In this document: piece after piece, positions 12,725-56,227 of the stretch
Numbering within the stretch: position 1 is the stretch's first letter
Layout: each line of letters starts with the position of its first letter
Assembly: GCA_020832005.1 (NCBI GenBank)
Contig: JAFIFN010000002.1
Location: 13,600 to 77,599, forward strand
Reading direction: 5' to 3'
Length of the DNA stretch: 64,000 nt
Source of the DNA: Gammaproteobacteria bacterium
Lineage (GTDB): Bacteria; Pseudomonadota; Gammaproteobacteria; Steroidobacterales; PWYM01
Program-made: the position numbers and the translations under genes
Notes under the pieces: model-generated
The model's database searches: none
What the model saw: only the letters and a program-made list of their open reading frames with translations
Told to the model about the DNA's origin: nothing

Positions 12725-12736
12725 GCGGAGTGGACC

Positions 12737-21531: not shown

Positions 21532-21568
21532 ACTTTCAGCCTGCGCCTCATGCCCCTTGGAGGTCCTT

Positions 21569-21988
21569 TCAGCCGGACCGCCCGATGCTTACAAGGTCCA
21601 GTCCTGGAATGTCGGCAAAGTCTTCGGTGTTGCGCGTGACCAGGCCCAAGCCGTGCTGGATCGCCTGGCTGGCCAGCCACAGATCCTGAACCCGGGTGCG
21701 GTGAGCGCGGACACCGGCCTTGGCCAGCAGCCCCGCGACCTCTCCGAACACGTCGGCGGTATCGGCATCGATCGGCAGCAAGGGTTTGCGGGTCATTCGT
21801 CGATAGGTGGCCAAGCGCTTCTGGCGCGCACCGGGGTCAACGGTCATCTCGACCCCCATGCGCAACTCCGCCAATGTCACAGGGGACAGATACACGGGAT
21901 CATCGCCCGTGCGCGCGGACACGTCGGCCGGACCGAGTCTGCCCTGTTCGACGTCGATCCAGATGCAGGTATCGATCAGGAAGCCCAC
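21569..21988 (-). CDS. vapC: PIN domain ribonuclease toxin (VapC)
   Basis: ORF 21569..21988. MGFLIDTCIWIDVEQG..YLSPVTLAELRMGV..DLWLASQAIQHGLGLVTRNTEDF is a classic VapC layout. Confidence 0.85.
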   Translation of the reverse strand: MGFLIDTCIWIDVEQGRLGPADVSARTGDDPVYLSPVTLAELRMGVEMTVDPGARQKRLATYRRMTRKPLLPIDADTADVFGEVAGLLAKAGVRAHRTRVQDLWLASQAIQHGLGLVTRNTEDFADIPGLDLVSIGRSG

Positions 21989-22242
21989 GGATCACGCAGT
22001 TCGTCGTCAAGAAGATCGCCACCTCGGCGGGCGTCTTCCAGCCAACCTTCCGCGGCCTCAGCGGGCAGAGTGCGATACAGATCGGCCAGCGCCTGCTCGG
22101 CGTTCTGCTGGCCAGGTGTGGGCGAGACCTGTGCGACCGAGCGGCCGCCGCGCTCGACGATGTAGGCCTCGCCCGATTCCCGGACCCGATCGAGCACCGC
22201 GCGAAGATTGCGGGCGAGTTCGGTGGAGGTGATCTTCTGCAT
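21976..22242 (-). CDS. Phd/YefM-type antitoxin
   Basis: ORF 21976..22350 trimmed to the ATG at 22242. MQKITSTELARNLRAVLDRVRESGEAYIVERGGRSVAQVSP is the Phd/YefM N-terminal fold. It overlaps vapC by 13 nt. Confidence 0.8.
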   Translation of the reverse strand: MQKITSTELARNLRAVLDRVRESGEAYIVERGGRSVAQVSPTPGQQNAEQALADLYRTLPAEAAEGWLEDARRGGDLLDDELRDPWAS

Positions 22243-22375: not shown

Positions 22376-22402
22376 ATTGTAGATTGTCGACAATCGACAA
22401 TC
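22376..22402. promoter_or_regulatory. candidate GntR/FadR-type operator upstream of the TonB-dependent receptor operon
   Basis: ATTGTAGATTGTCGACAATCGACAATC. The perfect 12-nt palindrome ATTGTCGACAAT sits at 22383-22394 and ends 45 nt before the ATG at 22440. The same palindrome recurs at 30515-30526. Confidence 0.6.
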
Positions 22403-22439
22403 TAAGTGAACTCATAATTCACGCTGGGGGAGGCGCATT

Positions 22440-24731
22440 ATGATCTGGCACCGGTACGTGCTGTTCCTGTCGCTGTTGTCCGTTTCCATCCCGATGGCTT
22501 CGTTGGCCGCCCCGGCAACTGCCAGCGAATCCCGGGCGCCGGTGCTGGAAGAAATCATCATTACCGCGCGGCGCTACCAGGAAAGCCTGCAGAACGTGCC
22601 GATTTCCGTGGCGGTCATGAACGATGACTACCTGACTACGCAGAACATCAGCCAGGTCAAGGACATCATCGACAAGTCTCCGGGAACCGGTTTCACGCGC
22701 TTCAACAAGTTGCAGAACGTCTACAGCATGCGCGGCTTGAATTCCCAGACCACGGGCTCGGCCGGCGATCCCTCGGTGCTGACCGTGGTGGATGACGTCG
22801 TCTATGTGAAGGACTACATGAAGTCGGTCGAGTTCTTCGACGTCGAACGCGTGGAGATCCTGCGTGGTCCGCAGGGCACGTCCTTCGGTCGCAACGCCAC
22901 CGGAGGTCTCGTTCACATCATCAGTAAACGCCCCACCCAGGAGCGCGAGGGCTATGTCTCCGCCACCGCAGGGAACTACGGGCACTGGGCGGTCAACGGT
23001 GCAGTCAACGGACCATTGGGCGATACCTCTGCCGGCAGGCTTGCGATTCATTACACGACCCATGATGGCTATACGCGCGATGTCATCCGCAACCGCAATC
23101 TTGCCGGCGAAGAGAACATCAGCCTGCGCGGTTCATTGCTGTTCACGCCGAGCGACGACCTGGAGGTCTACCTCAAGGCGGAGTTCAGCAGGGACGATGA
23201 CGAGTCGGCCGTCCGGCAGCCGCGCGACTGCGTGAATCCTCAGGAGAACTTCACGAACTTCATTGATCCCTGCAGCCCTTGGGAAACGGCCATATCGGAG
23301 ACCACTGGAGCGGGCGAGCCGTTCTACCTCAAGCGCGAGATCCTGAACCTTACGGCGCATGTTGCCTGGGATGTTGGCCAATCCGCGCGACTGACGTCGG
23401 TGAGCGCCTTTCTGGATGGCGAGGGCAACTACAACATGGATTCGGGCGGCACGCCGCGCGATCTCAATTTCAGCCTGACGCGTAATAACTCATCCCAGTT
23501 CAGCCAGGAAATCAGGCTCGACAACCACAACAGTGCGAACCCATTGCGATGGCTTACAGGTGTGTATTACCTCGATGACAAGCATGACCAGTCGGAAGGT
23601 CGTGAATGGTTCCAGGAGGACCTGAGCATCTACGGCCCGGGACCACCGTTTTCGCCGACCTCCGTGGTCGCCGTCTCCACGAACAAGACCACGAGCCTTG
23701 GACTCTTCGGAGAGCTGAGCTTCGACCTCACTGATCGACTGACCACCACGGCAGGTCTGCGCTACAGTCGAGACAAGAAGAATTTCGTCATCAACCATAA
23801 TGGCAGCGGCTTTCGCGGGCCGGTGACGAACTTTCTGGCGAACATTCCTGCCAACGGCGGCCCCTGCCCGCCCGGCCCGCTGTGCACGCTGGGATTCGAC
23901 GACGTGGCCACCTCCAACAGCTGGGATCACCTGAGCTTCCTGGCGTCGCTGGCCTTCGCGGCAAGCGACGATGTGATGCTCTACGCCACCGTCTCGGAGG
24001 CTTACAAGACCGGCGGCTACAACGGCGAGCCGCAGACGCCCGATGACGCAGTCATTCCCTACAACGAGGAGACTGCACTGAATTTCGAGCTCGGCATGAA
24101 GTCCCAGTGGTTCGACCGGCTGCGGTTGAATATCAGCGCCTTCTATGTGAAGTATGACGATCAACAAGTCAACGTGTTTCGTCAAGGTACCGGTGGCTTC
24201 ATAACCCAGGTCATCGACAACGCTGCCAAGAGCGATGTTCTGGGTATTGAGGTCGACTATGCTTGGCAGATCACCGAGCTGTTCCGAATCAGTGGCACGT
24301 TTGCCCACCTTGAGGCGGAGTTCAAGAATACCGAGCTGCAAACCGGACCAGGACCTGACAACGTGACCGACATCAGCGGCAACCGCCCGAACAATGTTCC
24401 GACCTGGACCGCGACACTCGTTGGCGAACTGGAGCTGCCGCTTCGTGACGGTGCCTATTTCTCGCTGCGTGCGGACTGGCGGGGCCGAAGCGCGGTTTTC
24501 AACGATATTGTCAACAACGTCGAGTTCCGACGCCCAGGCACCAACATCATTGGCGCACGCGCGATGTGGGCCTCAGCCGATGAGCGCTGGAACGTGGCGC
24601 TCTGGGGGCGGAATCTTGGCAACAAGGTGGACGTACTGAACATCGGACCGCGCCCGGGCTTTCTCAACGACAATCCAGCCGGCTTCGGTCCGCCACGCAC
24701 CTACGGCGGCACTGTGACACATCGTTTCTAG
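22440..24731 (+). CDS. TonB-dependent receptor
   Basis: ORF 22440..24731, 763 aa. It has a signal peptide, the plug motif LEEIIITARRYQESLQNVPISVAV, VERVEILRGPQGTSFGRNATGG, and the C-terminal PRTYGGTVTHRF ending in Phe. Confidence 0.9.
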   Translation: MIWHRYVLFLSLLSVSIPMASLAAPATASESRAPVLEEIIITARRYQESLQNVPISVAVMNDDYLTTQNISQVKDIIDKSPGTGFTRFNKLQNVYSMRGLNSQTTGSAGDPSVLTVVDDVVYVKDYMKSVEFFDVERVEILRGPQGTSFGRNATGGLVHIISKRPTQEREGYVSATAGNYGHWAVNGAVNGPLGDTSAGRLAIHYTTHDGYTRDVIRNRNLAGEENISLRGSLLFTPSDDLEVYLKAEFSRDDDESAVRQPRDCVNPQENFTNFIDPCSPWETAISETTGAGEPFYLKREILNLTAHVAWDVGQSARLTSVSAFLDGEGNYNMDSGGTPRDLNFSLTRNNSSQFSQEIRLDNHNSANPLRWLTGVYYLDDKHDQSEGREWFQEDLSIYGPGPPFSPTSVVAVSTNKTTSLGLFGELSFDLTDRLTTTAGLRYSRDKKNFVINHNGSGFRGPVTNFLANIPANGGPCPPGPLCTLGFDDVATSNSWDHLSFLASLAFAASDDVMLYATVSEAYKTGGYNGEPQTPDDAVIPYNEETALNFELGMKSQWFDRLRLNISAFYVKYDDQQVNVFRQGTGGFITQVIDNAAKSDVLGIEVDYAWQITELFRISGTFAHLEAEFKNTELQTGPGPDNVTDISGNRPNNVPTWTATLVGELELPLRDGAYFSLRADWRGRSAVFNDIVNNVEFRRPGTNIIGARAMWASADERWNVALWGRNLGNKVDVLNIGPRPGFLNDNPAGFGPPRTYGGTVTHRF

Positions 24732-24764
24732 TCCGTATCACGGCTCCGGGGGGGCTGGGTTCCT

Positions 24765-26126
24765 ATGGCACATCAGGACATTAACGTCGCCGGGGTGCTG
24801 GAAGAGGCACCAATGGGTCCGGTGCAGTACGGGGTCATCGCGATGTGTTTCGCGCTGATCATGGTCGATGGCTTCGACACGCAGAACGTCGCCTTCGTGG
24901 CGCCGGCACTGCGTGACGCATGGGACGTGTCTCCGAGCACTTTCGGCCTTCTGTTCAGCGCCGGTCTGACCGGCAGCATGCTCGGGGCGATGTTGCTGGG
25001 AGTGCTCGGTGACCGACTGGGTCGCCGACCACTGATCCTGGGCTCAACGATCGTCTTCAGTGTGATGTCCTTGTTGAGCGCGACCGCGCCCAACGTGGAG
25101 ACGCTGGCGATCTATCGTTTCATCGGCGGTCTTGGGCTCGGCGGCCTGCTGCCGAACGCCATCGCGCTCGTCGCGGAGTACTCACCCAGGCGCGTGCGCT
25201 CCACGATGGTGGTCTCGGCTTTCATTGGCTTTCCGCTGGGCGCGGTGCTAGGAGGCATGGCCAGCGCCCGCATCATTCCGGCATTCGGCTGGGAGATGGT
25301 GTTCATCGCAGGTGGGGTCATCCCGTTGCTGCTGCTGGTGGTCGTCTGGTGGCAACTGCCCGAGTCGCTGCGCTTCCTTGCCATGAAGCGCGCGCAGCCG
25401 GAGAAGATCCTGCGGACGCTGGTACGCATCCAGCCTGATCTGGCTGATCGCACGATTGCCAGCATCCGTGCCCCGGAGGTCGCGACCGTCCAGCAGCCCC
25501 TGCGGACGCTGTTTCGCGATGGTCGCGGTGGATGGACTGTTTATCTGTGGCTGCTGACGTTCTGCTCGCTGCTGTTGACTTACTTTCTCGTACACTGGAT
25601 TCCGCTTGTCCTGGTGGACGCCGGCATCGCCCAACAAAGCGCGATCATGGGTGTCGCACTACTCAATCTCGGCGGCATCATTGGCAGCCTGATCATCGGC
25701 CGCTGGAGCGACAAGCGCGGGCCTTACCTGGCCATGGGGCTCGCTCTGGTGCTGGCAATCGGGTTCATCTCGATGATCGGCTTCAGCGTACAGGCGGGTG
25801 TCGCGGTCCTGCTGAGCGTGATCTTCTTCGCCGGTCTGACCTTCGTTGGCGCGCAGCTGAATATCAGTGCGCTTGCCGCCACGAATTATCCGGTAGAGAT
25901 TCGCAGCGCCGGCACCGGGGCGAGCATCGCCGCAGGACGCGTCGGCTCGATCGTCGGCCCCCTGGTCGGTGGCATACTCATCAGCCGGCACGTGGAAACC
26001 GAGGCCATTTTCCTGGTGGCGATCATCCCCGCAGCAATCGCGCTTGCCGCAATCGTGGCTATGGCCAGAATCAAGCGCAAGGCGGGCGCCGAGATCAGCC
26101 CCGCAGTCACACGCCCGACGGCATGA
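24765..26126 (+). CDS. MFS transporter, aromatic acid:H+ symporter (AAHS)-like
   Basis: ORF 24765..26126. 12-TM layout. MVDGFDTQNVAFVAPAL and GDRLGRRPLIL (MFS motif A) resemble PcaK/BenK-type transporters. Confidence 0.9.
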   Translation: MAHQDINVAGVLEEAPMGPVQYGVIAMCFALIMVDGFDTQNVAFVAPALRDAWDVSPSTFGLLFSAGLTGSMLGAMLLGVLGDRLGRRPLILGSTIVFSVMSLLSATAPNVETLAIYRFIGGLGLGGLLPNAIALVAEYSPRRVRSTMVVSAFIGFPLGAVLGGMASARIIPAFGWEMVFIAGGVIPLLLLVVVWWQLPESLRFLAMKRAQPEKILRTLVRIQPDLADRTIASIRAPEVATVQQPLRTLFRDGRGGWTVYLWLLTFCSLLLTYFLVHWIPLVLVDAGIAQQSAIMGVALLNLGGIIGSLIIGRWSDKRGPYLAMGLALVLAIGFISMIGFSVQAGVAVLLSVIFFAGLTFVGAQLNISALAATNYPVEIRSAGTGASIAAGRVGSIVGPLVGGILISRHVETEAIFLVAIIPAAIALAAIVAMARIKRKAGAEISPAVTRPTA

Positions 26127-27880
26127 GGACATATCCCGATCGCACGATTGCCATGCGTGCGGTACCTCTCGCGATGATCGCGTGGCTGGCACTGAGCGCC
26201 TGCGGTGAGGCGCCGCCGATAGCGCGCACTGACCTGCCGGCAGACCGCCCGGCCAACGACCTGGCGGCCACATTAACCGTGCGCCCCAACTTCGTGGTGA
26301 TTCTGGCCGACGACCTGGGATACACCGATATCGGTGCCTTTGGCGGCGAAATCCGCACGCCACACCTCGATGCGCTGGCTCGCGAGGGTCTGGTGTTCTC
26401 AAACTTCTATGCTTCGCCGGCGTGTTCACCCACGCGCGCGATGCTGATGTCGGGCATGGACAACCATCGGGCCGGACTCGGCAATCTCGCCGAGCGTCTG
26501 TCGCCCAACCAGGTCGGCCAGCCGGGTTACGAAGGATTCCTACCCGCGCAGGTGGCCGCCTTGCCTGAAGTACTGCGTGCCGCGGGCTACCGCACTTACA
26601 TGACGGGGAAGTGGCACCTCGGACTGGAGGAAGGCAACAGCCCTGCCGCCGCCGGTTTTGATCGCTCGTTTGCGCTCGCTCCGTCAGGCGCGAGTCACTT
26701 CAGCGACATGCTGCCAGTGCGTGGTCCGGGGCGCGCGATCTATCGCGAGGATGGCAGACTCGTCGAGTCGCTTCCCGAGGACTTCTACTCGACCCGCTTC
26801 TACACCGAGCGCCTGATCGAATACATCGATGAGAATCGCGACAGCGGACAGCCTTTTTTCGCGTATCTCGCATTCACCGCTCCGCACTTCCCCCTGCAGG
26901 CGCCAGACGAGTCCATCGCCCGGTACGCAGACCGCTACGATGAAGGCTACGATGCACTGCACGCGCAGCGCCTGCACCGGCTCGAACAGCTGGGGCTTAT
27001 CCAGGCTGGCATCGAGCCTTACCCGCGACAGCGCTCGGAGCGCCCGTGGTCGGAACTCGATGCACAGGAACGGCAGGTATCTGCCCGGCGAATGGAAATC
27101 CATGCCGCGATGGTGGACGACATGGATCGTTACATCGGCCGACTGATCAGCTACCTGCGCGATACCGGCCAGTATGAGCACACCGTAATTGTTTTCCTCT
27201 CCGACAACGGAGCCGAAGGCCGCTGGCTGCATCAGGGTCTGACGCCGCTGAAGGCCTGGGCCGACGAGTGTTGCGACAACAGCCTTGAGAACATGGGTCG
27301 GCCAGGTTCGTACGTGATGCTCGGGGCAAACTGGGCGCGGGCGATCACCGGCCCGTATCGCATGTTCAAGGGGTTCACTACCGAGGGAGGTATACGGGTT
27401 CCAGCATTGCTGCACGCACCCGCCCTTGTCGCCGAGGGCAGGCAGGTCGACGAGCCGGTGACAGTCATGGATGTCATGCCGACGCTGCTCGATCTGGCCG
27501 GCATCGGCCACCCGGCGCCGCACTTCGAGGATCGCGAAGTCATGCCCATGCAGGGTCGGTCCATGCGCCCGGTGATACACGGTATCGGAACGGTGGCGGA
27601 TGAACAGGGCTTCGCCATGGGTTGGGAACTGCAGGGCAAGCGCGCCTACCGTCTGGGCGAATGGAAAATCGTCTGGCAACCCGCGCAGGCGGGCTGGGCG
27701 CCTTGGCCAAGCGCGGTCAGGGTCGATGACTGGCAGCTCTACCACCTGGGGGAGGATCCTGCCGAACTTCATGACCTTTCTGCCCGGCATCCGGAGAAGA
27801 GAGAGGAGCTGATCGGGCGCTGGGCAGAGTACGCGCGCAGGAACCACGTGATTTTGCCGGACAGGGTCGGTGACTACTAG
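26123..27880 (+). CDS. arylsulfatase (Cys-type, formylglycine-dependent), lipoprotein
   Basis: This is the C-terminal 585 aa of ORF 25532..27880. The ATG at 26123 overlaps the MFS stop (ATGA); an alternative ATG lies at 26153. Lipobox [28 protein letters not shown] and the sulfatase signature [14 protein letters not shown] (C-x-P-x-R). Confidence 0.9.
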
Positions 27881-29588: not shown

Positions 29589-30459
29589 GGCTGCGGTCGG
29601 ATTCATCGGCATCGGCAAGATGGGCTTGCCGATGGTCGGGCGCCTGCTTAGTGCCGGACATGCAGTCACGGCGTTCAATCGCACGCCTGGCAAGCTCGAC
29701 GCGGTGCGTGAGGCTGGCGCCAGCGTCGCCGCATGCCCGGCAGATGTCGCCGCAGCTACCGAGCTGATCGTGCTGTGTCTGCGCGACTCGGCCGCTGTCG
29801 AGGACGTTGTGTTCGGGCCCAACGGAATTGCCGCGGCCCGACGATGCGAAGGCAGGCTGCTGGTGGACTGCTCGAGCATCTCACCAGCGTGCACGCGGGC
29901 CCTCGCGGCCAGACTGGAGGATGTTGCCGGCATGCACTGGCTGGACGCGCCGGTCTCGGGCGGCGTGATCGGCGCGCAGCGCGGCTCCCTGGTATTCATG
30001 TGCGGCGGCGCGGCCGAGGACTACGAGCGTGCCCAAAGGGTCTTCGCCAGCCTCGGCCAGCACAGCACGCACATGGGGCCGGTGGGCAGTGGCCAGGTCA
30101 CCAAGCTGTGTAACCAGATGATCGTGAGCTGCAATCTCGCAGTCATTGCCGAGGCCATCAACCTTGCGCAGCGCACGGGGGTCGACGCGCAACGCCTGCC
30201 GGAAGCGCTTCACGGCGGGTTTGCCGATTCGCTGCCATTGCAGATCTACGGGCCGCGCATGGCCCAAGCCGACGAACGGCCTGCGATGGGCGAGATTCGC
30301 ACCATGCACAAGGACATGCTCAATGCCCTGCAGCACGCGCAGGCACAGGGTGTGCCGACGCCGATGACCGAAAGCGCTGCAGCACTGTATGCCCAGGTCG
30401 CAAACAGCGGCTACGCCTCTGCCGATCTCGAGGCACTCATCAGGCTGTTCGATCGATGA
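29581..30459 (+). CDS. NAD(P)-dependent beta-hydroxyacid dehydrogenase (3-hydroxyisobutyrate dehydrogenase family)
   Basis: ORF 29338..30459 trimmed to the ATG at 29581, which overlaps the dehydratase stop. [18 protein letters not shown] Rossmann motif, [18 protein letters not shown]. Confidence 0.85.
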
Positions 30460-30499
30460 GCAGGCTTGCATCAATGGGTCGCCAGCAGGCGTTTTCCTA

Positions 30500-30528
30500 A
30501 ATTGTATATTGTCGATTGTCGACAATAT
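30500..30528. promoter_or_regulatory. candidate GntR/FadR-type operator upstream of the SnoaL-FAH-MDR-VOC operon
   Basis: AATTGTATATTGTCGATTGTCGACAATAT. The palindrome ATTGTCGACAAT sits at 30515-30526, 66 nt before the ATG at 30592. The 13-mer AATTGTATATTGT (30500-30512) is identical to 34443-34455. Confidence 0.6.
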
Positions 30529-30591
30529 GAGTATGATTCGAAAGAACAGGAAACCTCCTGCGCAAGCGCACCCGACAGCGATGGACGCCAG

Positions 30592-31032
30592 ATGACCGCA
30601 CCAGATGCCCTCGACCTGACCACCCAGCGCCAGCTGGAGGCGCTGCTCAGCGAATTCGCCTGGCGCGTCGACCATGGCATGGCCGATCGCGTGCATGAAC
30701 TGTTTACCGACGATGGCGAGATTTCCGCGCCAGGGCTGGCTCTCAAGGGTCGGCCCGAGATCGCGAGAACTTTCGGCGCACGCTCGAAGAACCCGCGTCG
30801 GGTGTCGCGCCACTTCTGGAGCAATCCGCGCTTCGAGCGCCTCGGCGAGCGCACCGTCCGGGTGATCACCGCGGTTCAAACCTACATGCATGTACTGGCA
30901 GACAACGAAGCGCTGCCGGCGCCGGTGGGTTCGTGCGTGGTCGGCGATTCCACGGACATCATGGATCACGGATCCGACGGCCGGTGGCGATTTCGTTCCC
31001 GGACGCTCGATGTCGTTTTCCGGTTCGATTGA
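30592..31032 (+). CDS. SnoaL-like / NTF2-fold protein
   Basis: ORF 30466..31032 trimmed to the ATG at 30592, 146 aa. QLEALLSEFAWRVDHGMADRVHELFTDDGE and ...WRFRSRTLDVVF fit the SnoaL_4/NTF2-like size and pattern. The call is weak. Confidence 0.6.
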   Translation: MTAPDALDLTTQRQLEALLSEFAWRVDHGMADRVHELFTDDGEISAPGLALKGRPEIARTFGARSKNPRRVSRHFWSNPRFERLGERTVRVITAVQTYMHVLADNEALPAPVGSCVVGDSTDIMDHGSDGRWRFRSRTLDVVFRFD

Positions 31033-31058
31033 GCCTGCCCGCAGCGACCGACTCACTG

Positions 31059-31970
31059 ATGAAACTGGTGACATTCACCTGGCGCAACAAGACCTCCATC
31101 GGCGCGGTTCGCGACGATACGGTCATCGACCTGCGCCAGGCAGCACCGCAACTTCCCGAGACCATGCGACGCTTTCTGGAGGCCGGCGGTGAGGCCCTGG
31201 AGATCGCTCGGCGGGTGGTGGAGTCCGCACGCGACGCCATTCCCTTGAGCGACGTGCGACTTGAAGCGCCTGTGCCCGATCCACGCAAGTTTCTGGGTAT
31301 TGGCGGCAACACCCGCTCGCATCTCGAAGAGGTACGGGCGGCCGGCGTGCCCATCAGGCACTCACCCCACCAGACCTGGTTCAACAAGCAGGTGACCTGC
31401 ATCAACGGCCCCTACGACGATGTGCACCTGCCACGCATCTCGCACGAACTCGATTACGAAGGCGAGCTGGCCATGGTGATAGGACGGCGCTGCCGCAACG
31501 TCAAGCAAGCCCGGGCGCTGGAGGTGGTCGCGGGCTATACCGTCTGCAACGACATCAGCGTACGTGACTGGCAGTTGCGTGCACCGACCGCAACGCTTGG
31601 CAAATCGTTCGATACGCATGGGCCAGTTGGCCCGTGGATCGTCACCGCCGACGAGATCCCGGATCCGCATGCGCTTTCGTTGCGAACATGGGTCAATGAT
31701 GAGCTGCGCATGGACGGTCGCACCGACGAGTTTCTGCACAGCTGCGACGAAATGATCGCCGAGCTCTCCAGTGTATTCACGCTCGAGCCGGGCGACATAC
31801 TCACCACCGGCTCGCCCGCGGGTGTCGGAGCGTTGATGCAGCCACCACGATTCCTGCGCGTCGGCGATGTCGTCAGAGTAGAGGTCGAGCGTATCGGCTG
31901 GATCGAGAACCCGATCATCGAGGCACCAGCGGATTTCGTATATCTGCCGCCCAGGGGAATGGGCGCATGA
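31059..31970 (+). CDS. fumarylacetoacetate hydrolase (FAH) family protein
   Basis: ORF 30933..31970 trimmed to the ATG at 31059. LDYEGELAMVIGR, GYTVCNDISVRDWQ, KSFDTHGPVGPWIVT and LEPGDILTTGSPAGVG are FAH-family hallmarks. Confidence 0.9.
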   Translation: MKLVTFTWRNKTSIGAVRDDTVIDLRQAAPQLPETMRRFLEAGGEALEIARRVVESARDAIPLSDVRLEAPVPDPRKFLGIGGNTRSHLEEVRAAGVPIRHSPHQTWFNKQVTCINGPYDDVHLPRISHELDYEGELAMVIGRRCRNVKQARALEVVAGYTVCNDISVRDWQLRAPTATLGKSFDTHGPVGPWIVTADEIPDPHALSLRTWVNDELRMDGRTDEFLHSCDEMIAELSSVFTLEPGDILTTGSPAGVGALMQPPRFLRVGDVVRVEVERIGWIENPIIEAPADFVYLPPRGMGA

Positions 31971-33061
31971 CTGCCACGATGCGGGCAGTGCAGATCAGGC
32001 GCTATGGCCCAGCCGAGCAGGTCCTTGAACTGGTCGAAGACGTGCCCGTCCCAGTGCCCGCCGCCGACGAAATCCTGATTCGTGCCAGCGCGACCGCCAT
32101 AAATCCGGTCGACTGCACGGCACGCAACGGTTATGGCCGGCATTTCTTTTCATCCCTGTGGGGTGATCTGCCACTGATACTCGGCCGCGATGTGTCTGGA
32201 ACGGTGGTCGCAGCGGGCAGTGAAGTGCGCAGCTTCTCGGCAGGTGACGAAGTGTATGCCGCACCGCATATCGGTTGCTATGCAGAGTACGTCGTCGTGA
32301 AGGCGGCCCATGCTGCAACCAAGCCACGCAACCTTGATCATCTTCAGGCGGCGGCGCTGCCATTCGTCGCGCTGACCACGTGGTCGGCGCTGGTCGATCA
32401 CGCCGGGTTGTCGCCAGGCAATGCGCACGGCCTCCAGGCGGTGATTCCACGCGCTGCCGGCGGAGTCGGCAGCTTCGCCGTGCAGTTGCTCAAAGCCTGG
32501 GGCGCCCATGTCAGTGCGATCTGCAGCACCCGCAATGTCGAGCTGGTTCGCGCGCTGGGCGCCGACGTGGTGATCGACTACACGCGGCAGGATTTCTCCG
32601 AGCTGCTGCGCGACCAGGACCTCGTGCTCGACACCGTAGGCAAGCCCAGCGATTTCGAAACCATGGAGGGCCCGCGACCAAACGCCGGCAGCGAAGAAGA
32701 CTTCGACGACAAGCTGCTCAATGTACTCAAGCGCGGCAACGACGCAGTCTATGTCACCATCTGCTCGCCCAAGATGATGCTCACGGACAGTCTCGGCCTG
32801 CAGCAAGGCCTGCAACAGGCTCAGAAGATTTTCCAGCAGCGCGCCGCCGTTCAGCAGGCGCTTGGCCGACGATACTGCTGGTCTTTCTTCAATCCCAGCG
32901 GCGCGGCACTTGCCAGGATCAGCGAACTGGTGGAATCCGGCGACATCAAGCCAGTTATCGACAGCGAGTTCGCCCTGGAAGACATGGTTGCGGCGCACCA
33001 GCGGAGTGAGTCCGGTCGGACTCAGGGCAAGATCGTCATCCGGATTGGCGGGGCTTCCTAG
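31967..33061 (+). CDS. medium-chain (zinc-type) dehydrogenase/reductase, quinone-oxidoreductase-like
   Basis: ORF 31967..33061. The ATGA overlap joins it to the FAH gene. MRAVQIRRYGPAEQVLELVEDVPVPVPAADEILIRASATAINPVD and the Rossmann motif AAGGVGSFAVQLLK. Confidence 0.85.
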   Translation: MTATMRAVQIRRYGPAEQVLELVEDVPVPVPAADEILIRASATAINPVDCTARNGYGRHFFSSLWGDLPLILGRDVSGTVVAAGSEVRSFSAGDEVYAAPHIGCYAEYVVVKAAHAATKPRNLDHLQAAALPFVALTTWSALVDHAGLSPGNAHGLQAVIPRAAGGVGSFAVQLLKAWGAHVSAICSTRNVELVRALGADVVIDYTRQDFSELLRDQDLVLDTVGKPSDFETMEGPRPNAGSEEDFDDKLLNVLKRGNDAVYVTICSPKMMLTDSLGLQQGLQQAQKIFQQRAAVQQALGRRYCWSFFNPSGAALARISELVESGDIKPVIDSEFALEDMVAAHQRSESGRTQGKIVIRIGGAS

Positions 33062-33072
33062 GAGCACATGCC

Positions 33073-33681
33073 ATGAGAAAATTCGACGCTCGCGTGGTGG
33101 TCCCCGCGAAAGCCCGCGGCAAGATCGCGCCCGTACGCATGTCTCATGTGGTGCTCAATACACATCCGGACAATTACGAGGCCATGGTTGCGTGGTATCT
33201 GGCAGTGTTCGAAGGCGAGATCGCCTATGCCAATGATGAAGTCGCGTTCCTGGGGTTCGATGAGGAGCATCACCGCATTGCTATCGCGGCCGTGCCCCAT
33301 GTTGTAGAGCCACGTCCGAAGGCCTGGGGCCTGAATCATTTCGCTTTCACTTACGAGAGTCTTGAGCAGTTGCTCGAGACCTATCAGCGTTTGAAACAGG
33401 GAGGGATTACGCCTTACTGGCCGATTCTCCATGGCCCGACCACGTCGCTGTACTATAAGGATCCTGATCTCAATCGCGTCGAGCTGCTGTGTGACAATCT
33501 ACAGGGCGAGGAGCTCCTTGAGTTCTTCAAGTCCGGAGCGTTCGATGAAAACTTCATGGGGATTATATTCGATCCGGACGAGATGCACGCGAAGCTTAAG
33601 GCAGGCGTGCCCAAGGAGGAACTGACGCGTCGCGAGCGGCTGGCCGAGGGACAGACACCCTGGGACATGTATCGCGAGTAG
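33073..33681 (+). CDS. VOC family protein (extradiol-dioxygenase-like fold)
   Basis: ORF 33073..33681, with GGAG upstream. MSHVVLNTHPDNYEAMVAWYLAVFEGEI..HHRIAIA..LNHFAFTYESLEQLLETY..HGPTTSLYYKDPDLNRVEL fits VOC modules. Confidence 0.75.
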   Translation: MRKFDARVVVPAKARGKIAPVRMSHVVLNTHPDNYEAMVAWYLAVFEGEIAYANDEVAFLGFDEEHHRIAIAAVPHVVEPRPKAWGLNHFAFTYESLEQLLETYQRLKQGGITPYWPILHGPTTSLYYKDPDLNRVELLCDNLQGEELLEFFKSGAFDENFMGIIFDPDEMHAKLKAGVPKEELTRRERLAEGQTPWDMYRE

Positions 33682-33684
33682 GCT

Positions 33685-34389
33685 TCAGCGGCTGGCAGCC
33701 AGACGCTGCTTGATTTTCTCTACAGTGCTGAGAAGATGCGCATGCAGTCTGCTTGTGGCCCGCTCGCGATCGCGCGCGAGCAAGGCGGCGATGAATTCCT
33801 CATGTTCCTCGAAAGAGTCGTCTGTCACCGCTTCCAGGGCCCCCGACAGGTTCTGCAACCGGGTGATGAAGCGCTGTATACCTTCGTGAGTAGACACCAG
33901 CGCAGCATTGCCGCTGGCCGCTACAATGGCGCGGTGCACGGTATTGTTAAGCTCGAAATAACGCGCGACATCATGGCGCTTGCTGCAGGCACGCATGCGT
34001 TCGTGCAGTTGCCGGATATCGACGAGCTGCTCATCGGTCGCACGGCTGCAGGCCAAGTCGATCGCCAGCACCTCCAGCGCCATGAGCACCTCGGCGTGCT
34101 CGACCGCGTCGATCGCGGTTGGCCGGGTAACCACCGCCCCTCGTCCGGGCAGCAGTTCCAGCAAGCCCTCCTTGGCCATCACCTGGAACGCCTCGCGCAA
34201 AGGCGAACGCGAGACACCATAGCGTTCGCACAGCACACGCTCCTGCAGGCGAGAGCCAGGCGCCCACAACCCCTCCACGATCTCGGCACGCAGGCGCGCG
34301 GCGATCTCTTCCTGCAGGGGTCGCCGGGGAATCGGACTCGGGGCGTCGGTGGCGCTCAACGCGCCAGGAATGTCGGGCCTGCGTGCCAT
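33685..34389 (-). CDS. GntR family transcriptional regulator, FadR subfamily (FCD domain)
   Basis: ORF 33685..34389. Winged HTH LQERVLCERYGVSRSPLREAFQVMAKEGLLELLPGRGAVV, then a helical FCD-type C-terminal domain. Confidence 0.9.
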   Translation of the reverse strand: MARRPDIPGALSATDAPSPIPRRPLQEEIAARLRAEIVEGLWAPGSRLQERVLCERYGVSRSPLREAFQVMAKEGLLELLPGRGAVVTRPTAIDAVEHAEVLMALEVLAIDLACSRATDEQLVDIRQLHERMRACSKRHDVARYFELNNTVHRAIVAASGNAALVSTHEGIQRFITRLQNLSGALEAVTDDSFEEHEEFIAALLARDRERATSRLHAHLLSTVEKIKQRLAASR

Positions 34390-34442
34390 CGATGGAACGA
34401 TCCTTCAGGACGGTGTATGCCGGGCGGAAAACTGGAAGCTCG

Positions 34443-34462
34443 AATTGTATATTGTAGACGAA
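34443..34462. promoter_or_regulatory. candidate GntR operator in the GntR/FGE divergent intergenic region
   Basis: AATTGTATATTGTAGACGAA. The first 13 nt are identical to 30500-30512 and related to 22376-22390. It lies in the 131-nt gap between the starts at 34389 (-) and 34521 (+). Confidence 0.55.
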
Positions 34463-34520
34463 ACCACTTCATACCGAGTGAACAATCCCTCGCGCCGAGG
34501 GCGTTCGGGAGACATTTCTG

Positions 34521-35612
34521 ATGCGGAAAGTCACACGCGGGACCGACCGCCTCGGCGGTGCCCGAGGCCCGTTCAGGGCCGGTCTGTTCGGGCTCGCGGC
34601 CACGCTCGCGATTGGTTTGGCGCCCCGCGTACATGGCCTTGGCAGTGAATCCGCTGCGGTCTGTGATGGTCGCTTTCATCACGAAGTGAACGGCCCCAAC
34701 GGCCACGCACGGGTCTGGATAGAGACCGGACGTTTTCACATGGGTGACGCGCACGGCTATGTCGAAGAGGGTCCCGTGGTGGAACGCGCAGTGGACGGGT
34801 TCTGGATGGACAGCTTCGCCGTCACCAACGGTCAGTTTGCCGCTTTCGTCGAGGCCACGGGCTATGTGACAGTGGCCGAGCGGAAAGGCCTGGACTTCGA
34901 TGCGGCGCAGTCGGTCGGTGATGCAGGCGCGGCGGTATTTCGCCGACGCGGCGATTCGCCGACGTCCCAGAGACAGCCTGGTTACTGGACTTTCGTGCCA
35001 GGGGCGAGCTGGCGCCATCCGGACGGACCGGGGAGCACGATCGAGGGCGCAGAGCACTTTCCGGTGGTCCAGGTCGCTTTCGAAGATGCCGCGGCCTATG
35101 CGACATGGGTGGGTGCCGAGCTGCCGTCGGAGGTGCAGTGGGAATACGCAGCGCGCGGCGGCCTGGCCTCAGCGCGCTATGCCTGGGGCGATGAGTTCCA
35201 GCCCGAGGGCCGATTCATGGCCAATACCTGGCAAGGCGAGTTCCCATTTATCGATGAGGGCCTGGATGGTTTCCCGGGGCTCGCTCCGGTGGGCTGCTTC
35301 GCAGCCAACGGATTCGGTCTCTACGACATGATCGGCAACGTCTGGGAATGGACCACGACAGCCTTTCACCCCAAACACCGGCCTGAGCACGGCGCGGGTG
35401 CGCCCGAGCAAGCCACGCAGACCGTCACTGACCCCACAGCGGAGTTCCGGGTCATCAAGGGAGGATCGCACCTGTGCGCGGCCAATGCCTGCAGACGCTA
35501 TCGACCGGGCGCGCGCCAGCCCGCGGAGGCGGATCTGGGGACGAATCACATCGGCTTTCGGACGATCGTCACGGGCGCGCGGGACTTGCCGCCGGTCGCG
35601 TCGGACAGGTGA
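34521..35612 (+). CDS. formylglycine-generating enzyme (FGE/SUMF1 family)
   Basis: ORF 34521..35612. FWMDSFAVTNGQFAAFVEATGY, WRHPDG, PVVQVAFEDAAAYATWVG, LPSEVQWEYAARGG, YDMIGNVWEWT and GGSHLC are FGE-sulfatase domain hallmarks. Confidence 0.9.
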   Translation: MRKVTRGTDRLGGARGPFRAGLFGLAATLAIGLAPRVHGLGSESAAVCDGRFHHEVNGPNGHARVWIETGRFHMGDAHGYVEEGPVVERAVDGFWMDSFAVTNGQFAAFVEATGYVTVAERKGLDFDAAQSVGDAGAAVFRRRGDSPTSQRQPGYWTFVPGASWRHPDGPGSTIEGAEHFPVVQVAFEDAAAYATWVGAELPSEVQWEYAARGGLASARYAWGDEFQPEGRFMANTWQGEFPFIDEGLDGFPGLAPVGCFAANGFGLYDMIGNVWEWTTTAFHPKHRPEHGAGAPEQATQTVTDPTAEFRVIKGGSHLCAANACRRYRPGARQPAEADLGTNHIGFRTIVTGARDLPPVASDR

Positions 35613-36532: not shown

Positions 36533-36576
36533 CTGAGTTGACAGACTTGCGCTTTATCCGGTGGGGGAGCCAGCGT

Positions 36577-41712: not shown

Positions 41713-41738
41713 ACGAATCCTCCCATGAGGCGCCGGCC

Positions 41739-53518: not shown

Positions 53519-56227
<2,709 letters not shown>

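What the first reader, a model, noticed from the sequence alone, without database searches (positions are those of the whole stretch)
22376..35612. Shared palindromic operator (ATTGTCGACAAT / AATTGTATATTGT) links the sulfatase, IlvD-type dehydratase, FAH and FGE genes into one GntR-type regulon
Seen in the sequence:
- The perfect 12-nt palindrome ATTGTCGACAAT occurs at 22383-22394, ending 45 nt before the TonB-dependent receptor start.
- It occurs again at 30515-30526, 66 nt before the SnoaL-like gene. Each copy is preceded by ATTGTA(G/T)ATTGT.
- The 13-mer AATTGTATATTGT is identical at 30500-30512 and 34443-34455. The second copy lies in the 131-nt divergent gap between the GntR gene and the formylglycine-generating-enzyme gene.
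- All three sites are AT-rich intergenic spots in otherwise GC-rich DNA.
- The downstream genes are chained by overlaps: MFS/sulfatase ATGA, sulfatase/dehydratase 11 nt, dehydratase/dehydrogenase 8 nt, FAH/MDR ATGA.

Established knowledge: FadR-subfamily GntR regulators bind inverted repeats of the T.GT-N-AC.A type, and TTGTCGACAA fits this. Cys-type sulfatases (C-x-P-x-R, present in both sulfatases here) need FGE. IlvD/Edd dehydratases plus FAH-family enzymes are the core of non-phosphorylative sugar-acid routes (Weimberg/Dahms-like).

Inference: the regulator at 33685-34389 controls itself, FGE, and two plus-strand operons: receptor, MFS, sulfatase, dehydratase and dehydrogenase; then SnoaL, FAH, MDR and VOC. 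Together these would form a pathway for a sulfated compound taken up through the outer membrane. The substrate could be a sulfated sugar or sugar acid, or an aromatic sulfate ester (the MFS is AAHS-like). I do not know of a described pathway with this gene combination.
Basis: partly seen in the sequence, partly recalled or inferred. Interest (0 to 1): 0.66.

Follow-up and report, generated by a model that had tools for sequence, protein, structure and literature searches.

The report
Conserved GntR operator for sulfatase cluster
Three short repeated DNA motifs are very probably the binding sites of a neighbouring GntR-type repressor that controls a gene cluster for importing, de-sulfating and breaking down an unknown sulfate ester in Woeseiaceae-like marine bacteria. 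The type of regulation is ordinary and well known, but the compound being degraded has not been identified.

Summary
Both exact strings occur where stated, and 0 of 100 shuffles reproduce either one. The sites are more than a palindrome: they are arrays of 3-4 ATTGT/ACAAT pentamers at a strict 7-nt period. A weight matrix finds only these three sites in the 64 kb.

Comparative genomics supports the regulon. The same arrays sit upstream of the orthologous receptor, SnoaL, IlvD, dehydrogenase and GntR genes in 13 further related genomes, including cultured Woeseia oceani. They stay with the GntR gene through rearrangements. They are essentially absent from 1.44 Mb of control DNA.

A motif-only metagenome scan placed about 40% of hits beside distant GntR/FCD genes, so this is a widespread operator class. 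It fits the published FadR-subfamily pattern: TKGT/ACMA boxes, 2-nt spacing and extra half-site boxes.

FGE membership is supported only in the window and its nearest relative. The Weimberg/Dahms analogy is weak, because the dehydratase belongs to the true dihydroxy-acid dehydratase clade. The sulfatase is a full-length homologue of Pseudomonas arylsulfatase with a lipoprotein signal, and the MFS is of the aromatic-acid type.

Verdict: a new member of a known kind. The regulation is well supported but not shown experimentally, and the substrate is unknown.

The parts
22376..22401 (.). Operator site 1. It has four pentamer boxes at a 7-nt period (ATTGT-AG-ATTGT-CG-ACAAT-CG-ACAAT) and ends 38 nt before the receptor start codon.
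   Evidence: Sequence. Weight-matrix score 36.0. It aligns column for column with the receptor-proximal sites of L001 and L096.
22440..24731 (+). TonB-dependent outer-membrane receptor, the first gene of operon 1.
   Evidence: Pfam Plug plus TonB_dep_Rec_b-barrel. Orthologues lie next to GntR orthologues in all long related loci.
24765..26126 (+). MFS transporter of the aromatic-acid:H+ symporter type.
   Evidence: Pfam MFS_1. NCBIfam TIGR00895 scores 359 bits (cut-off 418), PcaK 290 bits and MhpT 272 bits.
26123..27880 (+). Cys-type sulfatase with a lipoprotein-type signal (LALSAC) and CSPTR at residues 101-105. It is a homologue of the P. aeruginosa arylsulfatase.
   Evidence: Pfam Sulfatase. 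PDB 1HDH: E = 8e-155, residues 52-576 against 2-526, with CSPTR aligned to the formylglycine site. N-terminus and motif.
27870..29588 (+). IlvD/Edd-family dehydratase of the dihydroxy-acid dehydratase clade.
   Evidence: Pfam. NCBIfam NF002068 scores 785 (cut-off 644) and TIGR00110 scores 620 (cut-off 618). 547 bits to DHAD 6OVT, against 222-266 bits to sugar-acid dehydratases.
29581..30459 (+). Beta-hydroxyacid dehydrogenase (tartronate-semialdehyde reductase / HIBADH family), the last gene of operon 1.
   Evidence: Pfam NAD_binding_2 plus NAD_binding_11. NCBIfam and PDB neighbours. It is an invariant neighbour of the regulator.
30501..30526 (.). Operator site 2. It has three direct boxes and one inverted box (ATTGT-AT-ATTGT-CG-ATTGT-CG-ACAAT) and overlaps a predicted promoter.
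   Evidence: Sequence. Weight-matrix score 35.9. The same arrangement of three direct boxes and one inverted box lies upstream of SnoaL in L001; L084, L085, L086 and L096 have 2-3 same-oriented boxes plus a degenerate inverted one.
30509..30537 (+). Sigma-70-like promoter call (TTGTCG, 17 nt, TATGAT) for operon 2. Its -35 element and spacer lie inside site 2.
   Evidence: 1 found against 0.1 expected. This is a consensus match only.
30592..31032 (+). SnoaL_4 (NTF2-like) protein, the first gene of operon 2.
   Evidence: Pfam PF13577.
31059..31970 (+). FAH-family enzyme (HpaG/HpcE-like or diketo-acid hydrolase-like). The likely start is ATG 31059; the ORF opens at 30933.
   Evidence: Pfam FAA_hydrolase. 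Start candidates. Orthologues are 300-306 aa. PDB neighbours.
31967..33061 (+). Medium-chain dehydrogenase/reductase, quinone-oxidoreductase-like.
   Evidence: Pfam ADH_N plus ADH_zinc_N_2. NCBIfam PIG3-type, 174 bits, below its cut-off.
33073..33681 (+). VOC/glyoxalase-fold protein, the last gene of operon 2.
   Evidence: Pfam Glyoxalase. It is the most conserved gene of the cluster: 84% identical in L001 and 93% in L095.
33694..33710 (+). Terminator-like hairpin just after the VOC gene, inside the 3' end of the convergent GntR gene.
   Evidence: 1 found against 0.1 expected.
33685..34389 (-). GntR-family regulator of the FadR/FCD subfamily, the proposed binder of the three sites.
   Evidence: Pfam GntR plus FCD. 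It is the only GntR homologue in the window. Residues 20-91 are almost invariant across 14 orthologues.
34444..34462 (.). Operator site 3, at the middle of the GntR-FGE divergent gap. Read towards GntR it is TTCGT-CT-ACAAT-AT-ACAAT.
   Evidence: Sequence. Weight-matrix score 26.7. The 23-nt core is identical in L095. The same box order and orientation lie upstream of GntR in L084, L085, L086, L089 and L096.
34521..35612 (+). Formylglycine-generating enzyme with an N-terminal signal-like segment. It is a probable, lineage-specific regulon member.
   Evidence: Pfam FGE-sulfatase, 236 bits. It is divergent to GntR also in L095, at 70% identity. It is absent beside GntR in all other loci.

Best explanation
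The three AT-rich sites are operators for the FadR/FCD-subfamily GntR regulator encoded at 33685-34389.

**Operator.** Each operator is built on a TTGT-NN-ACAA palindrome, which one dimer would bind. It is extended by one or two further ATTGT boxes exactly 7 nt apart, which probably recruit further subunits or dimers.

**Regulation.** With no inducer, the protein sits on or next to the core promoters and represses three units:
- operon 1: TonB receptor, MFS, sulfatase, DHAD-type dehydratase, beta-hydroxyacid dehydrogenase
- operon 2: SnoaL, FAH, MDR, VOC
- the GntR/FGE divergent pair, in this lineage

A pathway metabolite binding the FCD domain would release the protein from DNA.

**Pathway.** The receptor imports a sulfate ester of an organic acid. 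The lipoprotein arylsulfatase, matured by FGE, removes the sulfate in the periplasm. The aromatic-acid-type MFS carries the de-sulfated acid inwards, and cytoplasmic enzymes degrade it.

**What is shown and what is inferred.**
- Shown computationally: the motifs, their significance, their conservation, their co-migration with the regulator gene, and the protein family assignments.
- Inferred: binding itself, repression rather than activation, the stoichiometry on the extra boxes, the effector, the cellular compartments, and the substrate.

**My estimates**
- This regulator binds these sites: about 0.85.
- It acts as an inducible repressor: about 0.7.
- The substrate is an aryl or phenolic-acid sulfate rather than an aliphatic or sugar-acid sulfate: about 0.55.
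For: **Significance in the window**
- The exact strings occur twice each, with 0 of 100 shuffles matching. The heptad pattern gives 5 matches against 1.07 expected.
- The weight matrix scores only the three sites at 26.7 or above; the next best position scores 10.0.

**Conservation**
- Arrays lie upstream of the orthologous receptor, SnoaL, IlvD, dehydrogenase, MFS and GntR genes in L001, L081-L087, L089, L091, L093, L095 and L096, where GntR is 57-84% identical. This includes Woeseia oceani CP016268.
- Every hit scoring 13 or more in these loci lies in such a gap.
- Controls: 3 weak hits in 1.44 Mb, and 0-2 per replicate in locally shuffled sequence, against 29 clusters observed.

**Link to the regulator**
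- The regulator-proximal site keeps its box order and orientation, nnnGT-NN-ACAAT-AT-ACAAT reading towards GntR, although the neighbouring gene differs.
- In a motif-only metagenome scan, 37 of 120 hits lie -30 to +300 nt upstream of a distant GntR/FCD gene and about 12 more lie at its 3' end. Random positions give 4.4.
- The DNA-binding domain is almost invariant among orthologues, and there is no other GntR gene in the window.

**Fit to the known family**
- The motif fits the FadR-subfamily TKGT/ACMA consensus in its 2-nt-spacing class. Extra boxes 7-12 nt from the centre are documented, and a single mid-gap site usually serves both operons of a divergent pair (PMC4494728).
- Site 2 overlaps the -35 element and spacer of a predicted promoter.

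**Pathway genes**
- The sulfatase is a full-length homologue of PAS arylsulfatase and has a lipobox.
- The MFS belongs to the aromatic-acid symporter family.
Against: - There is no binding, expression or genetic data.
- No promoter was called at sites 1 and 3, so repression is inferred from one promoter call and from how close the sites lie to start codons.
- The motif class is shared by many distant GntR/FCD regulators. A paralogue elsewhere in the genome could also bind, and only 64 kb of the genome could be scanned.
- Site 3 has a degenerate third box (ACGAA).
- FGE lies beside GntR only in the window and L095.
- The enzyme set has no ring hydroxylase or clear ring-cleavage dioxygenase in the window. 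The DHAD-type dehydratase and beta-hydroxyacid dehydrogenase point to small aliphatic hydroxy acids. The substrate call is therefore weak.
Confidence: 0.8

Rival explanations
1. The sites are true GntR-type operators, but a different regulator binds them, either mainly or in addition. This would be a paralogous FCD-type GntR encoded elsewhere in the genome that recognises the same widespread triple-box motif. The local regulator would then be only one of several inputs.
For: The motif-only metagenome scan shows the same ATTGT-MK-ATTGT-MK-ACAAT pattern beside many GntR/FCD genes that are only 24-37% identical to this one, across contigs of 40-73% GC. Recognition specificity is therefore not unique to this orthologue group. 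Only 64 kb of the genome could be examined.
Against: One site always lies just upstream of this regulator's own gene and travels with it through rearrangements. The regulator gene is always linked to the receptor, MFS, sulfatase and dehydrogenase genes. No second GntR homologue lies in the window.
Confidence: 0.1
2. The local GntR regulator binds the sites but acts as an activator or a dual regulator, rather than as a simple inducible repressor.
For: No promoter could be called at sites 1 and 3. The multi-box arrays extend upstream of the palindrome, where an activator could sit. From my own recollection, not checked here, some FadR-subfamily proteins such as FadR itself activate some promoters.
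Against: Site 2 overlaps the -35 element and spacer of the only predicted promoter. Receptor-proximal arrays end only about 25-38 nt before the start codon in the window, L001 and L096, which leaves no room for a promoter downstream of them. Local catabolic FCD regulators such as DgoR and NanR are repressors (PMC11705089, PMC8012715).
Confidence: 0.08
3. Site 1 belongs to the divergent toxin-antitoxin pair (PIN toxin 21569-21988, antitoxin 21976-22242) as its autoregulatory operator. Its similarity to sites 2 and 3 would be incidental.
For: From my own knowledge, toxin-antitoxin operons are usually autoregulated through palindromes in their promoter region. Site 1 lies in the 197-nt gap shared with the antitoxin gene.
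Against: Site 1 lies 134 nt from the antitoxin start but 38 nt from the receptor start. The only promoter call for the TA pair is at 22282-22253, well away from it. The same array, with the same flanking bases, lies upstream of the receptor gene in L001 and L096, where no homologous TA pair is present. The TA proteins have no homologues in the related loci.
Confidence: 0.01
4. The repeats are chance similarities among AT-rich intergenic stretches in a GC-rich genome and have no regulatory role.
For: The bare 12-mer with up to 2 mismatches is not enriched: 3 matches against 1.57 expected. Intergenic DNA here is more AT-rich than the genes.
Against: The exact copies and the heptad pattern are never reached in shuffles. 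Shuffles in 100-nt blocks, which keep local AT-richness, give 0-2 clusters against 29 observed. The boxes are conserved at orthologous positions while the flanks diverge.
Confidence: 0.01

Closest known systems
FadR/FCD-subfamily GntR repressors with 2-nt GT-AC spacing (the GntR, HpxS, HypR, MdcY, PrpR and UxuR groups in Suvorova et al. 2015, PMC4494728)
   Same: Winged-helix GntR domain plus FCD domain. AT-rich palindrome with TKGT/ACMA boxes and 2 nt between GT and AC. Local regulator next to the catabolic and transport genes it controls, and a site upstream of its own gene. Extra half-site boxes 7-12 nt from the palindrome centre; here the box centre is 10.5 nt away.
   Different: This orthologue group and its sulfatase-linked regulon are not among the groups named in the passages of that paper I read. 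All NCBIfam regulator models score below their cut-offs; the best is phnR at 101 bits against a cut-off of 271. The extra boxes are as well conserved as the palindrome halves, not weaker, and can number two per site.
E. coli DgoR (D-galactonate repressor, FadR subfamily)
   Same: A local repressor of a transport-plus-catabolism operon. [quoted passage not shown] Its repeat, AATTGTAGTACAACAAT, also contains TTGT/ACAA boxes.
   Different: DgoR has 3-nt GT-AC spacing and uses two separate palindromes, not a phased 7-nt array. It did not appear among the solved structures matched by sequence at E up to 1e-5.
E. coli NanR (sialic-acid repressor, FCD type) on the (GGTATA)3 operator
   Same: An FCD-type GntR regulator that recognises three closely spaced repeats. 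Three dimers assemble cooperatively on them (PMC8012715). This is a precedent for more than one dimer on a short multi-box operator.
   Different: NanR boxes are all direct repeats of a different sequence. Its cooperativity needs a 32-residue N-terminal extension. Here the roughly 19 residues before the conserved IPRR motif vary in sequence and are partly absent in orthologues. Similarity to NanR is weak: 82.6 bits against a cut-off of 260 in NCBIfam, and E = 4.5e-6 over the HTH only in the PDB search.
Pseudomonas aeruginosa arylsulfatase AtsA/PAS (PDB 1HDH)
   Same: Full-length homology: E = 8e-155, residues 52-576 against 2-526, with the Cys-x-Pro-x-Arg site aligned to the PAS formylglycine position.
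   Different: The protein here has an extra 51-residue N-terminus with a lipoprotein-type signal, so it probably acts in the periplasm. It is embedded in a carbon-catabolic cluster with a TonB receptor and a GntR regulator. From my own knowledge, not checked here, PAS belongs to the sulfate-starvation response.
Weimberg/Dahms non-phosphorylative pentose routes (XylD/AraC dehydratase plus XylX-type FAH enzyme)
   Same: An IlvD/Edd-family dehydratase and a FAH-family enzyme occur in one cluster.
   Different: The dehydratase is in the DHAD clade: 547 bits to DHAD, against 266 bits to L-arabinonate dehydratase and 222 bits to an IlvD/Edd-family dehydratase (5OYN). No sugar dehydrogenase, lactonase or 2-ketoglutarate-semialdehyde dehydrogenase is present. 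The two enzymes lie in different operons. In more distant relatives both are replaced by an HpcH aldolase and an FMN dehydrogenase.

Membership tests
GntR family, FadR (FCD) subfamily regulator | N-terminal winged-helix GntR DNA-binding domain | tested here: met
   PF00392 scores 64.6 bits (cut-off 27) over residues 25-87.
GntR family, FadR (FCD) subfamily regulator | C-terminal all-helical FCD effector-binding domain | tested here: met
   PF07729 scores 85.1 bits (cut-off 24.3) over residues 99-219. The closest solved structures are FCD-type regulators.
GntR family, FadR (FCD) subfamily regulator | Operator matching NyGT-Nx-ACNy with TKGT/ACMA boxes and 2-3 nt between GT and AC | tested here: met
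   The consensus from 23 non-redundant sites is ATTGT-AT-ATTGT-CG-ACAAT. The definition comes from PMC4494728.
GntR family, FadR (FCD) subfamily regulator | The protein physically binds the operator and is released by a small-molecule effector | not testable with these tools
   This needs EMSA or footprinting and ligand screening. The only indirect support is that the site and the gene migrate together.
GntR family, FadR (FCD) subfamily regulator | Metal-binding residues of the FCD pocket | tested here: inconclusive
   H129, H152, H196, H218 and N148 are invariant in 14 orthologues. They were not mapped onto a structure.
NanR-type cooperative multi-dimer assembly on repeat operators | Three or more closely spaced repeats of the recognition box | tested here: met
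   There are 3-4 boxes at a 7-nt period at every strong site. Orientation is mixed, unlike NanR's all-direct repeats.
NanR-type cooperative multi-dimer assembly on repeat operators | Conserved N-terminal extension that mediates dimer-dimer cooperativity | tested here: not met
   Residues 1-19 vary in sequence and are about 12 residues shorter in P0024, P0033, P0051 and P0079. The NanR requirement is described in PMC8012715.
Type I (formylglycine) sulfatase, PAS/AtsA-like arylsulfatase | Sulfatase fold with the C-x-P-x-R maturation motif | tested here: met
   PF00884 scores 202.8 bits. CSPTR lies at residues 101-105 and aligns to the formylglycine site of 1HDH.
Type I (formylglycine) sulfatase, PAS/AtsA-like arylsulfatase | Full-length similarity to a characterised arylsulfatase | tested here: met
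   1HDH: E = 8e-155, 520 bits, 525 aligned residues. The next family, 7ALL, scores 244 bits, and carbohydrate sulfatases score 160 bits or less. The NCBIfam arylsulfatase model is below its cut-off: 132 bits against 481.
Type I (formylglycine) sulfatase, PAS/AtsA-like arylsulfatase | Hydrolysis of aryl sulfate esters | not testable with these tools
   This needs an enzyme assay after co-expression with the FGE encoded at 34521-35612.
Weimberg/Dahms non-phosphorylative sugar-acid pathway | Pentonate or hexonate dehydratase of the XylD/AraC/YjhG clade | tested here: not met
   The protein passes the DHAD cut-offs (NF002068 785 > 644; TIGR00110 620 > 618). The L-arabinonate model scores 349 against a cut-off of 882, and the YjhG/YagF model 207 against 808. 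PDB: 547 bits to DHAD, against 222-266 bits to sugar-acid dehydratases.
Weimberg/Dahms non-phosphorylative sugar-acid pathway | Sugar 1-dehydrogenase, lactonase and 2-ketoglutarate-semialdehyde dehydrogenase (or a KDX aldolase) in the cluster | tested here: not met
   None of these is among the 11 cluster genes or their immediate flanks.

The most novel reading that the evidence does not exclude
The cluster encodes a so far undescribed catabolic route for a sulfated organic acid, widespread in Woeseiaceae, which are abundant bacteria of marine sediments and particles. The substrate could be a sulfated phenolic acid of plant or algal origin, or a sulfated small hydroxy acid.

In this route a TonB-dependent receptor is coupled to a periplasmic PAS-type arylsulfatase. 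A DHAD-type dehydratase is recruited for catabolism. The downstream module is interchangeable: IlvD/FAH/MDR/VOC in some genomes, HpcH aldolase plus FMN dehydrogenase in others.

The regulator's operator would also be a clean natural case in which the 'extra half-site boxes' of FadR-type regulators are as strong as the palindrome itself. That would make their unexplained function directly testable.
Probability: 0.4. Interest if true: 0.55.

Novelty: new member of a known kind. Interest (0 to 1): 0.4.

Why it matters
The regulation itself is standard: a local FadR/FCD-type GntR repressor with a TTGT-NN-ACAA operator. Two things make the locus useful.

1. **A handle on an unknown sulfate-ester pathway.** The conserved regulon marks out a sulfate-ester utilisation system whose substrate is unknown, in Woeseiaceae. 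A recent comparative study of this family counted sulfatase genes but did not assign substrates (PMC12175321). The regulon is intact in the sequenced species Woeseia oceani (which I recall is cultured). Induction experiments, regulator deletion and effector screening could therefore identify the substrate. That would connect a class of PAS-like arylsulfatases, whose natural substrates I believe are poorly known, to a defined carbon source.

2. **A clean model for the 'additional boxes'.** The operators have 3-4 equally strong boxes at an exact 7-nt period. Such boxes were noted statistically next to GntR-family palindromes and left unexplained (PMC4494728). The motif-only scan shows the same triple-box layout beside many unrelated GntR/FCD genes, so a mechanistic answer would apply widely.

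Tried and rejected
1. **GntR excised from between the TA pair and the receptor gene.** I considered this because L096-L098 have a PIN pair next to GntR. It is rejected: the window's TA proteins have no tblastn hit in any related locus.

2. **NanR-like cooperativity through an N-terminal arm.** Rejected, because the extension is not conserved.

3. **An organosulfur theme for the IlvD plus dehydrogenase pair.** Bradyrhizobium L070 has the pair next to an SsuA-like ABC transporter, a DszC/SfnB-like flavin monooxygenase and a flavin reductase. However, Aliihoeflea L009 has it with a TRAP transporter, and in Hydrogenophaga L005 the dehydratase stands alone. The theme is not general, so I did not use it.

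4. **Promoter calls at sites 1 and 3.** None was found on the relevant strands. A CATAAT hexamer at 22413-22418 has no acceptable -35 partner.

5. **Full-text search for TTGTCGACAA.** It returned only unrelated papers.

6. **Searches for the gene combination.** They returned nothing.

7. **The motif-only metagenome scan.** It says nothing about other members of this particular regulon, only about the motif class.

8. **Greedy ORF picking in GC-rich loci.** It produced antisense artefacts. ORF 36735-37907, which had no Pfam hit, was the wrong frame of an MFS paralogue at 36538-37935.

9. **PDB search with the VOC protein.** It gave only marginal hits, so it offers no functional clue.

Full report
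**1. The observation**

- ATTGTCGACAAT is at 22383-22394 and 30515-30526.
- AATTGTATATTGT is at 30500-30512 and 34443-34455.
- Neither occurs anywhere else in the window, and no dinucleotide-preserving shuffle produced even one copy of either.

The stated distances to start codons, the 131-nt GntR-FGE gap and the four gene junctions are correct. Pfam confirms every gene identity:
- TonB-dependent receptor, MFS, sulfatase, IlvD/Edd dehydratase
- NAD_binding_2/11 dehydrogenase, SnoaL_4, FAH, MDR, VOC
- GntR plus FCD regulator, and FGE

Both sulfatases in the window carry CSPTR at residues 101-105.

Two corrections apply. At site 1 the 12-mer ATTGTAGATTGT overlaps the palindrome and does not precede it. 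With two mismatches allowed, the bare palindrome is not enriched (3 matches against 1.57 expected).

**2. What the sites really are**

Each site is an array of ATTGT/ACAAT pentamers with an exact 7-nt period.
- Site 1 (22376-22401) has two forward and two reverse boxes.
- Site 2 (30501-30526) has three forward boxes and one reverse.
- Site 3 (34444-34462) has two forward boxes and a degenerate reverse box.

ATTGTNNATTGT with up to 1 mismatch gives 5 matches, all inside the three sites, against 1.07 expected.

I built a 25-nt weight matrix from 23 non-redundant sites. Its consensus is TAT-ATTGT-AT-ATTGT-CG-ACAAT-CTA, and the spacers are nearly always (A/C)(T/G). It scores the three window sites 26.7-36.0, and the next best position in the 64 kb scores 10.0. 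Within this window the regulon therefore consists of these three sites only. The second sulfatase (50231-51985), a second MFS (36538-37935) and a second receptor (44468-46687) have no site.

**3. Conservation in relatives**

The window's own genome is not in the species-representative collection. The best match for the dehydratase is 75% identical, in a Woeseiaceae MAG (L001). Of 80 loci recovered with the dehydratase, only L001 has the whole cluster.

The regulator has many orthologues. I fetched context for twelve of them. With L001 this gives 13 distinct related genomes, including the complete genome of Woeseia oceani. Three results follow.
- **Invariant neighbours.** The regulator always sits with the TonB receptor, the aromatic-acid-type MFS, the sulfatase and the beta-hydroxyacid dehydrogenase.
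- **Variable downstream module.** Closer relatives (62-84% identical) have IlvD plus SnoaL or an AP_endonuc_2 protein, plus FAH, MDR and VOC. More distant ones (57-64%) have an HpcH/HpaI aldolase, an FMN-dependent 2-hydroxyacid dehydrogenase and an enoyl-CoA hydratase.
- **Site positions.** Every array scoring at least 13 of 15 in these loci lies in an intergenic gap flanking the regulator, receptor, SnoaL, IlvD, MFS or dehydrogenase genes.

The control set was 1.44 Mb of unrelated dehydratase loci with the same GC content. It has three weak hits, none with the palindromic layout. Shuffling in 100-nt blocks, which keeps local AT-richness, gives 0-2 clusters per replicate, against 29 observed.

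The architecture is conserved too.
- The arrangement of three direct boxes and one inverted box upstream of SnoaL recurs in L001. L084, L085, L086 and L096 have 2-3 same-oriented boxes plus a degenerate inverted one.
- The two-plus-two array upstream of the receptor gene aligns column for column in L001 and L096, while the flanks diverge.

**4. Which protein binds**

The strongest argument is that one site travels with the regulator gene. Read towards GntR it is always nnnGT-NN-ACAAT-AT-ACAAT. This holds whether the divergent or upstream neighbour is:
- FGE (window, L095)
- the receptor gene (L084, L085, L086, L096)
- a CMD gene (L089)

L001 has a related three-box site (ATTGT-AT-gTTGT-CT-ACAAa) about 40-50 nt upstream of its GntR gene.

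In L095 the 23-nt core GTTTCGTCTACAATATACAATTC is identical to the window's, although the rest of the gap differs. The winged-helix domain (residues 20-91) is almost invariant across 14 orthologues. No other GntR homologue is encoded in the window.

An independent, gene-blind test was to search metagenome contigs for ATTGTMKATTGTMKACAAT alone.
- None of the 120 sampled hits carried this cluster.
- 58 carried a distant GntR/FCD homologue (24-37% identical).
- In 37 of those the motif lay -30 to +300 nt upstream of that gene's start, and in about 12 more it lay just past the 3' end.
- Random positions in the same contigs give 4.4. Only one such homologue occurs in the 1.44 Mb of control DNA.
- All 24 hits on contigs below 40% GC lacked a GntR neighbour, so they are probably chance matches.

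This confirms that the motif is a GntR-type operator. It also shows that it is a widespread class and not something peculiar to this cluster.

**5. Mechanism**

Site 2 overlaps the -35 element and spacer of a predicted promoter: TTGTCG, 17 nt, TATGAT, at 30509-30537. The receptor-proximal arrays end only about 25-38 nt before the start codon in the window, L001 and L096, so the core promoter must overlap them. No promoter was called at sites 1 and 3.

Site 3 is centred at about 34453 in a gap centred at 34455. Published comparative work finds that a single mid-gap site in a divergent pair usually controls both operons (PMC4494728). In L095 the same site abuts the FGE start.

I therefore propose repression by promoter occlusion of three units: operon 1, operon 2 and the GntR/FGE pair. 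A pathway metabolite binding the FCD domain would relieve it. A terminator-like hairpin follows the VOC gene. None separates the dehydrogenase and SnoaL genes, so some read-through from operon 1 into operon 2 is possible.

The extra boxes most likely recruit additional subunits or dimers. NanR shows that FCD regulators can stack three dimers on three close repeats (PMC8012715). However, the N-terminal arm that NanR uses for this is not conserved here. The binding stoichiometry is unknown.

**6. The pathway**

- **Sulfatase.** It is a full-length homologue of Pseudomonas aeruginosa arylsulfatase (1HDH, E = 8e-155). Carbohydrate sulfatases score 160 bits or less. It has an added N-terminal lipoprotein-type signal.
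- **MFS.** It falls in the aromatic-acid:H+ symporter family, close to PcaK and MhpT, though below the family cut-offs.

This suggests receptor-mediated import, desulfation in the periplasm, and uptake of the de-sulfated acid.

- **Dehydratase.** It is not of the Weimberg/Dahms kind. It passes the NCBIfam DHAD cut-offs and scores 547 bits to M. tuberculosis DHAD, against 222-266 bits to solved sugar-acid-type IlvD/Edd dehydratases (L-arabinonate, galactonate and PDB 5OYN).
- **Dehydrogenase.** It is closest to tartronate-semialdehyde and 3-hydroxyisobutyrate dehydrogenases.
- **FAH enzyme.** It is closest to HpaG/HpcE-type isomerase/decarboxylases and diketo-acid hydrolases.

The dehydratase and dehydrogenase pair also occurs without a sulfatase, next to other acid transporters. 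It looks like a portable hydroxy-acid module.

Woeseia oceani adds an MhpA-like flavin hydroxylase and a second VOC protein to the SnoaL operon. This gives some support to an aromatic substrate.

I favour an aryl or phenolic-acid sulfate, at about 0.55, over an aliphatic or sugar-acid sulfate. This is inference only.

**7. Comparison with what is known, and novelty**

The regulator meets the defining features of the FadR/FCD subfamily. Its operator fits the published consensus in the 2-nt-spacing class, including the documented but unexplained extra half-site boxes 7-12 nt from the palindrome centre (PMC4494728). It resembles DgoR in logic (PMC11705089). It is not a NanR-type assembly by the one feature I could test.

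I found no paper describing this regulon or this gene combination. The recent Woeseiaceae comparative study only counts sulfatases.

**8. Verdict**

- The regulon inference is well supported by comparative genomics but has not been shown experimentally.
- FGE membership is lineage-specific.
- The substrate is unknown.

This is a new member of a known kind. It is of moderate interest, mainly as a route to identifying an unknown sulfate-ester substrate in an abundant marine family, and as a clean model for multi-box GntR operators.

Noticed in passing
window 20866-22242: A toxin-antitoxin pair on the minus strand lies directly upstream of, and divergent to, the receptor gene: PIN/VapC toxin at 21569-21988 and an 88-aa antitoxin at 21976-22242 beginning MQKITSTELARNLR. 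A PIN7-domain protein lies at 20866-21531. Unrelated PIN pairs sit beside the same cluster in L091 and L096-L098. The window's pair has no homologue there.
   Followed up: partly
window 36538-37935, 44468-46687, 50231-51985: A second set of paralogues is scattered downstream without any operator site: an MFS 42% identical to the cluster's, a TonB-dependent receptor 28% identical, and a sulfatase 44% identical with CSPTR at the same residues. They are mixed with an acyl-CoA dehydrogenase (40495-41835), an AMP-binding ligase (42811-44376) and a cytochrome P450 (48135-49487). This may be a second sulfate-ester system under different control.
   Followed up: partly
L099-L218 (metagenome contigs): The triple-box pattern ATTGT-MK-ATTGT-MK-ACAAT lies just upstream or just downstream of distant GntR/FCD genes (24-37% identical) in about 49 of 120 sampled contigs, at 40-73% GC. 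The palindrome plus one phased extra box therefore looks like a general operator layout for a large group of FCD regulators. I did not examine which pathways they control.
   Followed up: partly
L070 4525-13435 (Bradyrhizobium centrosematis); also L009, L005: The DHAD-type dehydratase and the beta-hydroxyacid dehydrogenase form a pair that is widespread in Bradyrhizobium and other Alphaproteobacteria (60-68% identical). In L070 the pair lies next to an SsuA/TauA-like ABC transporter, a DszC/SfnB-like Acyl-CoA_dh_2 protein, a flavin reductase and a family III CoA-transferase. In Aliihoeflea (L009) it lies next to a TRAP transporter. The pair's substrate is unknown.
   Followed up: partly
L089-L094 (for example L093 10001-16569): In more distant relatives the regulator is co-directional with MFS and sulfatase. 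The IlvD/SnoaL/FAH/MDR/VOC genes are replaced by an HpcH/HpaI aldolase, an FMN-dependent 2-hydroxyacid dehydrogenase and an enoyl-CoA hydratase. An operator site lies in the gap between the FMN dehydrogenase and the dehydrogenase gene. The downstream catabolic module is therefore interchangeable while the uptake and desulfation core is fixed.
   Followed up: partly
L083 1008-9799 (Woeseia oceani CP016268): The SnoaL operon is longer in W. oceani and in L087. After SnoaL, FAH, MDR and VOC come a second VOC, an AA_synth (PF06684) protein, a second FAH, a DAO-type oxidase, a second beta-hydroxyacid dehydrogenase and a 531-aa FAD_binding_3 aromatic-ring hydroxylase-like protein.
   Followed up: no
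window 11024-14077: A DUF1800 and DUF1501 gene pair (566 and 446 aa) lies here. It is unrelated to the finding.
   Followed up: no
window 53519-56227: A 902-aa protein with FG-GAP/VCBS-type repeats and a PKD-like domain lies here. It is unrelated to the finding.
   Followed up: no
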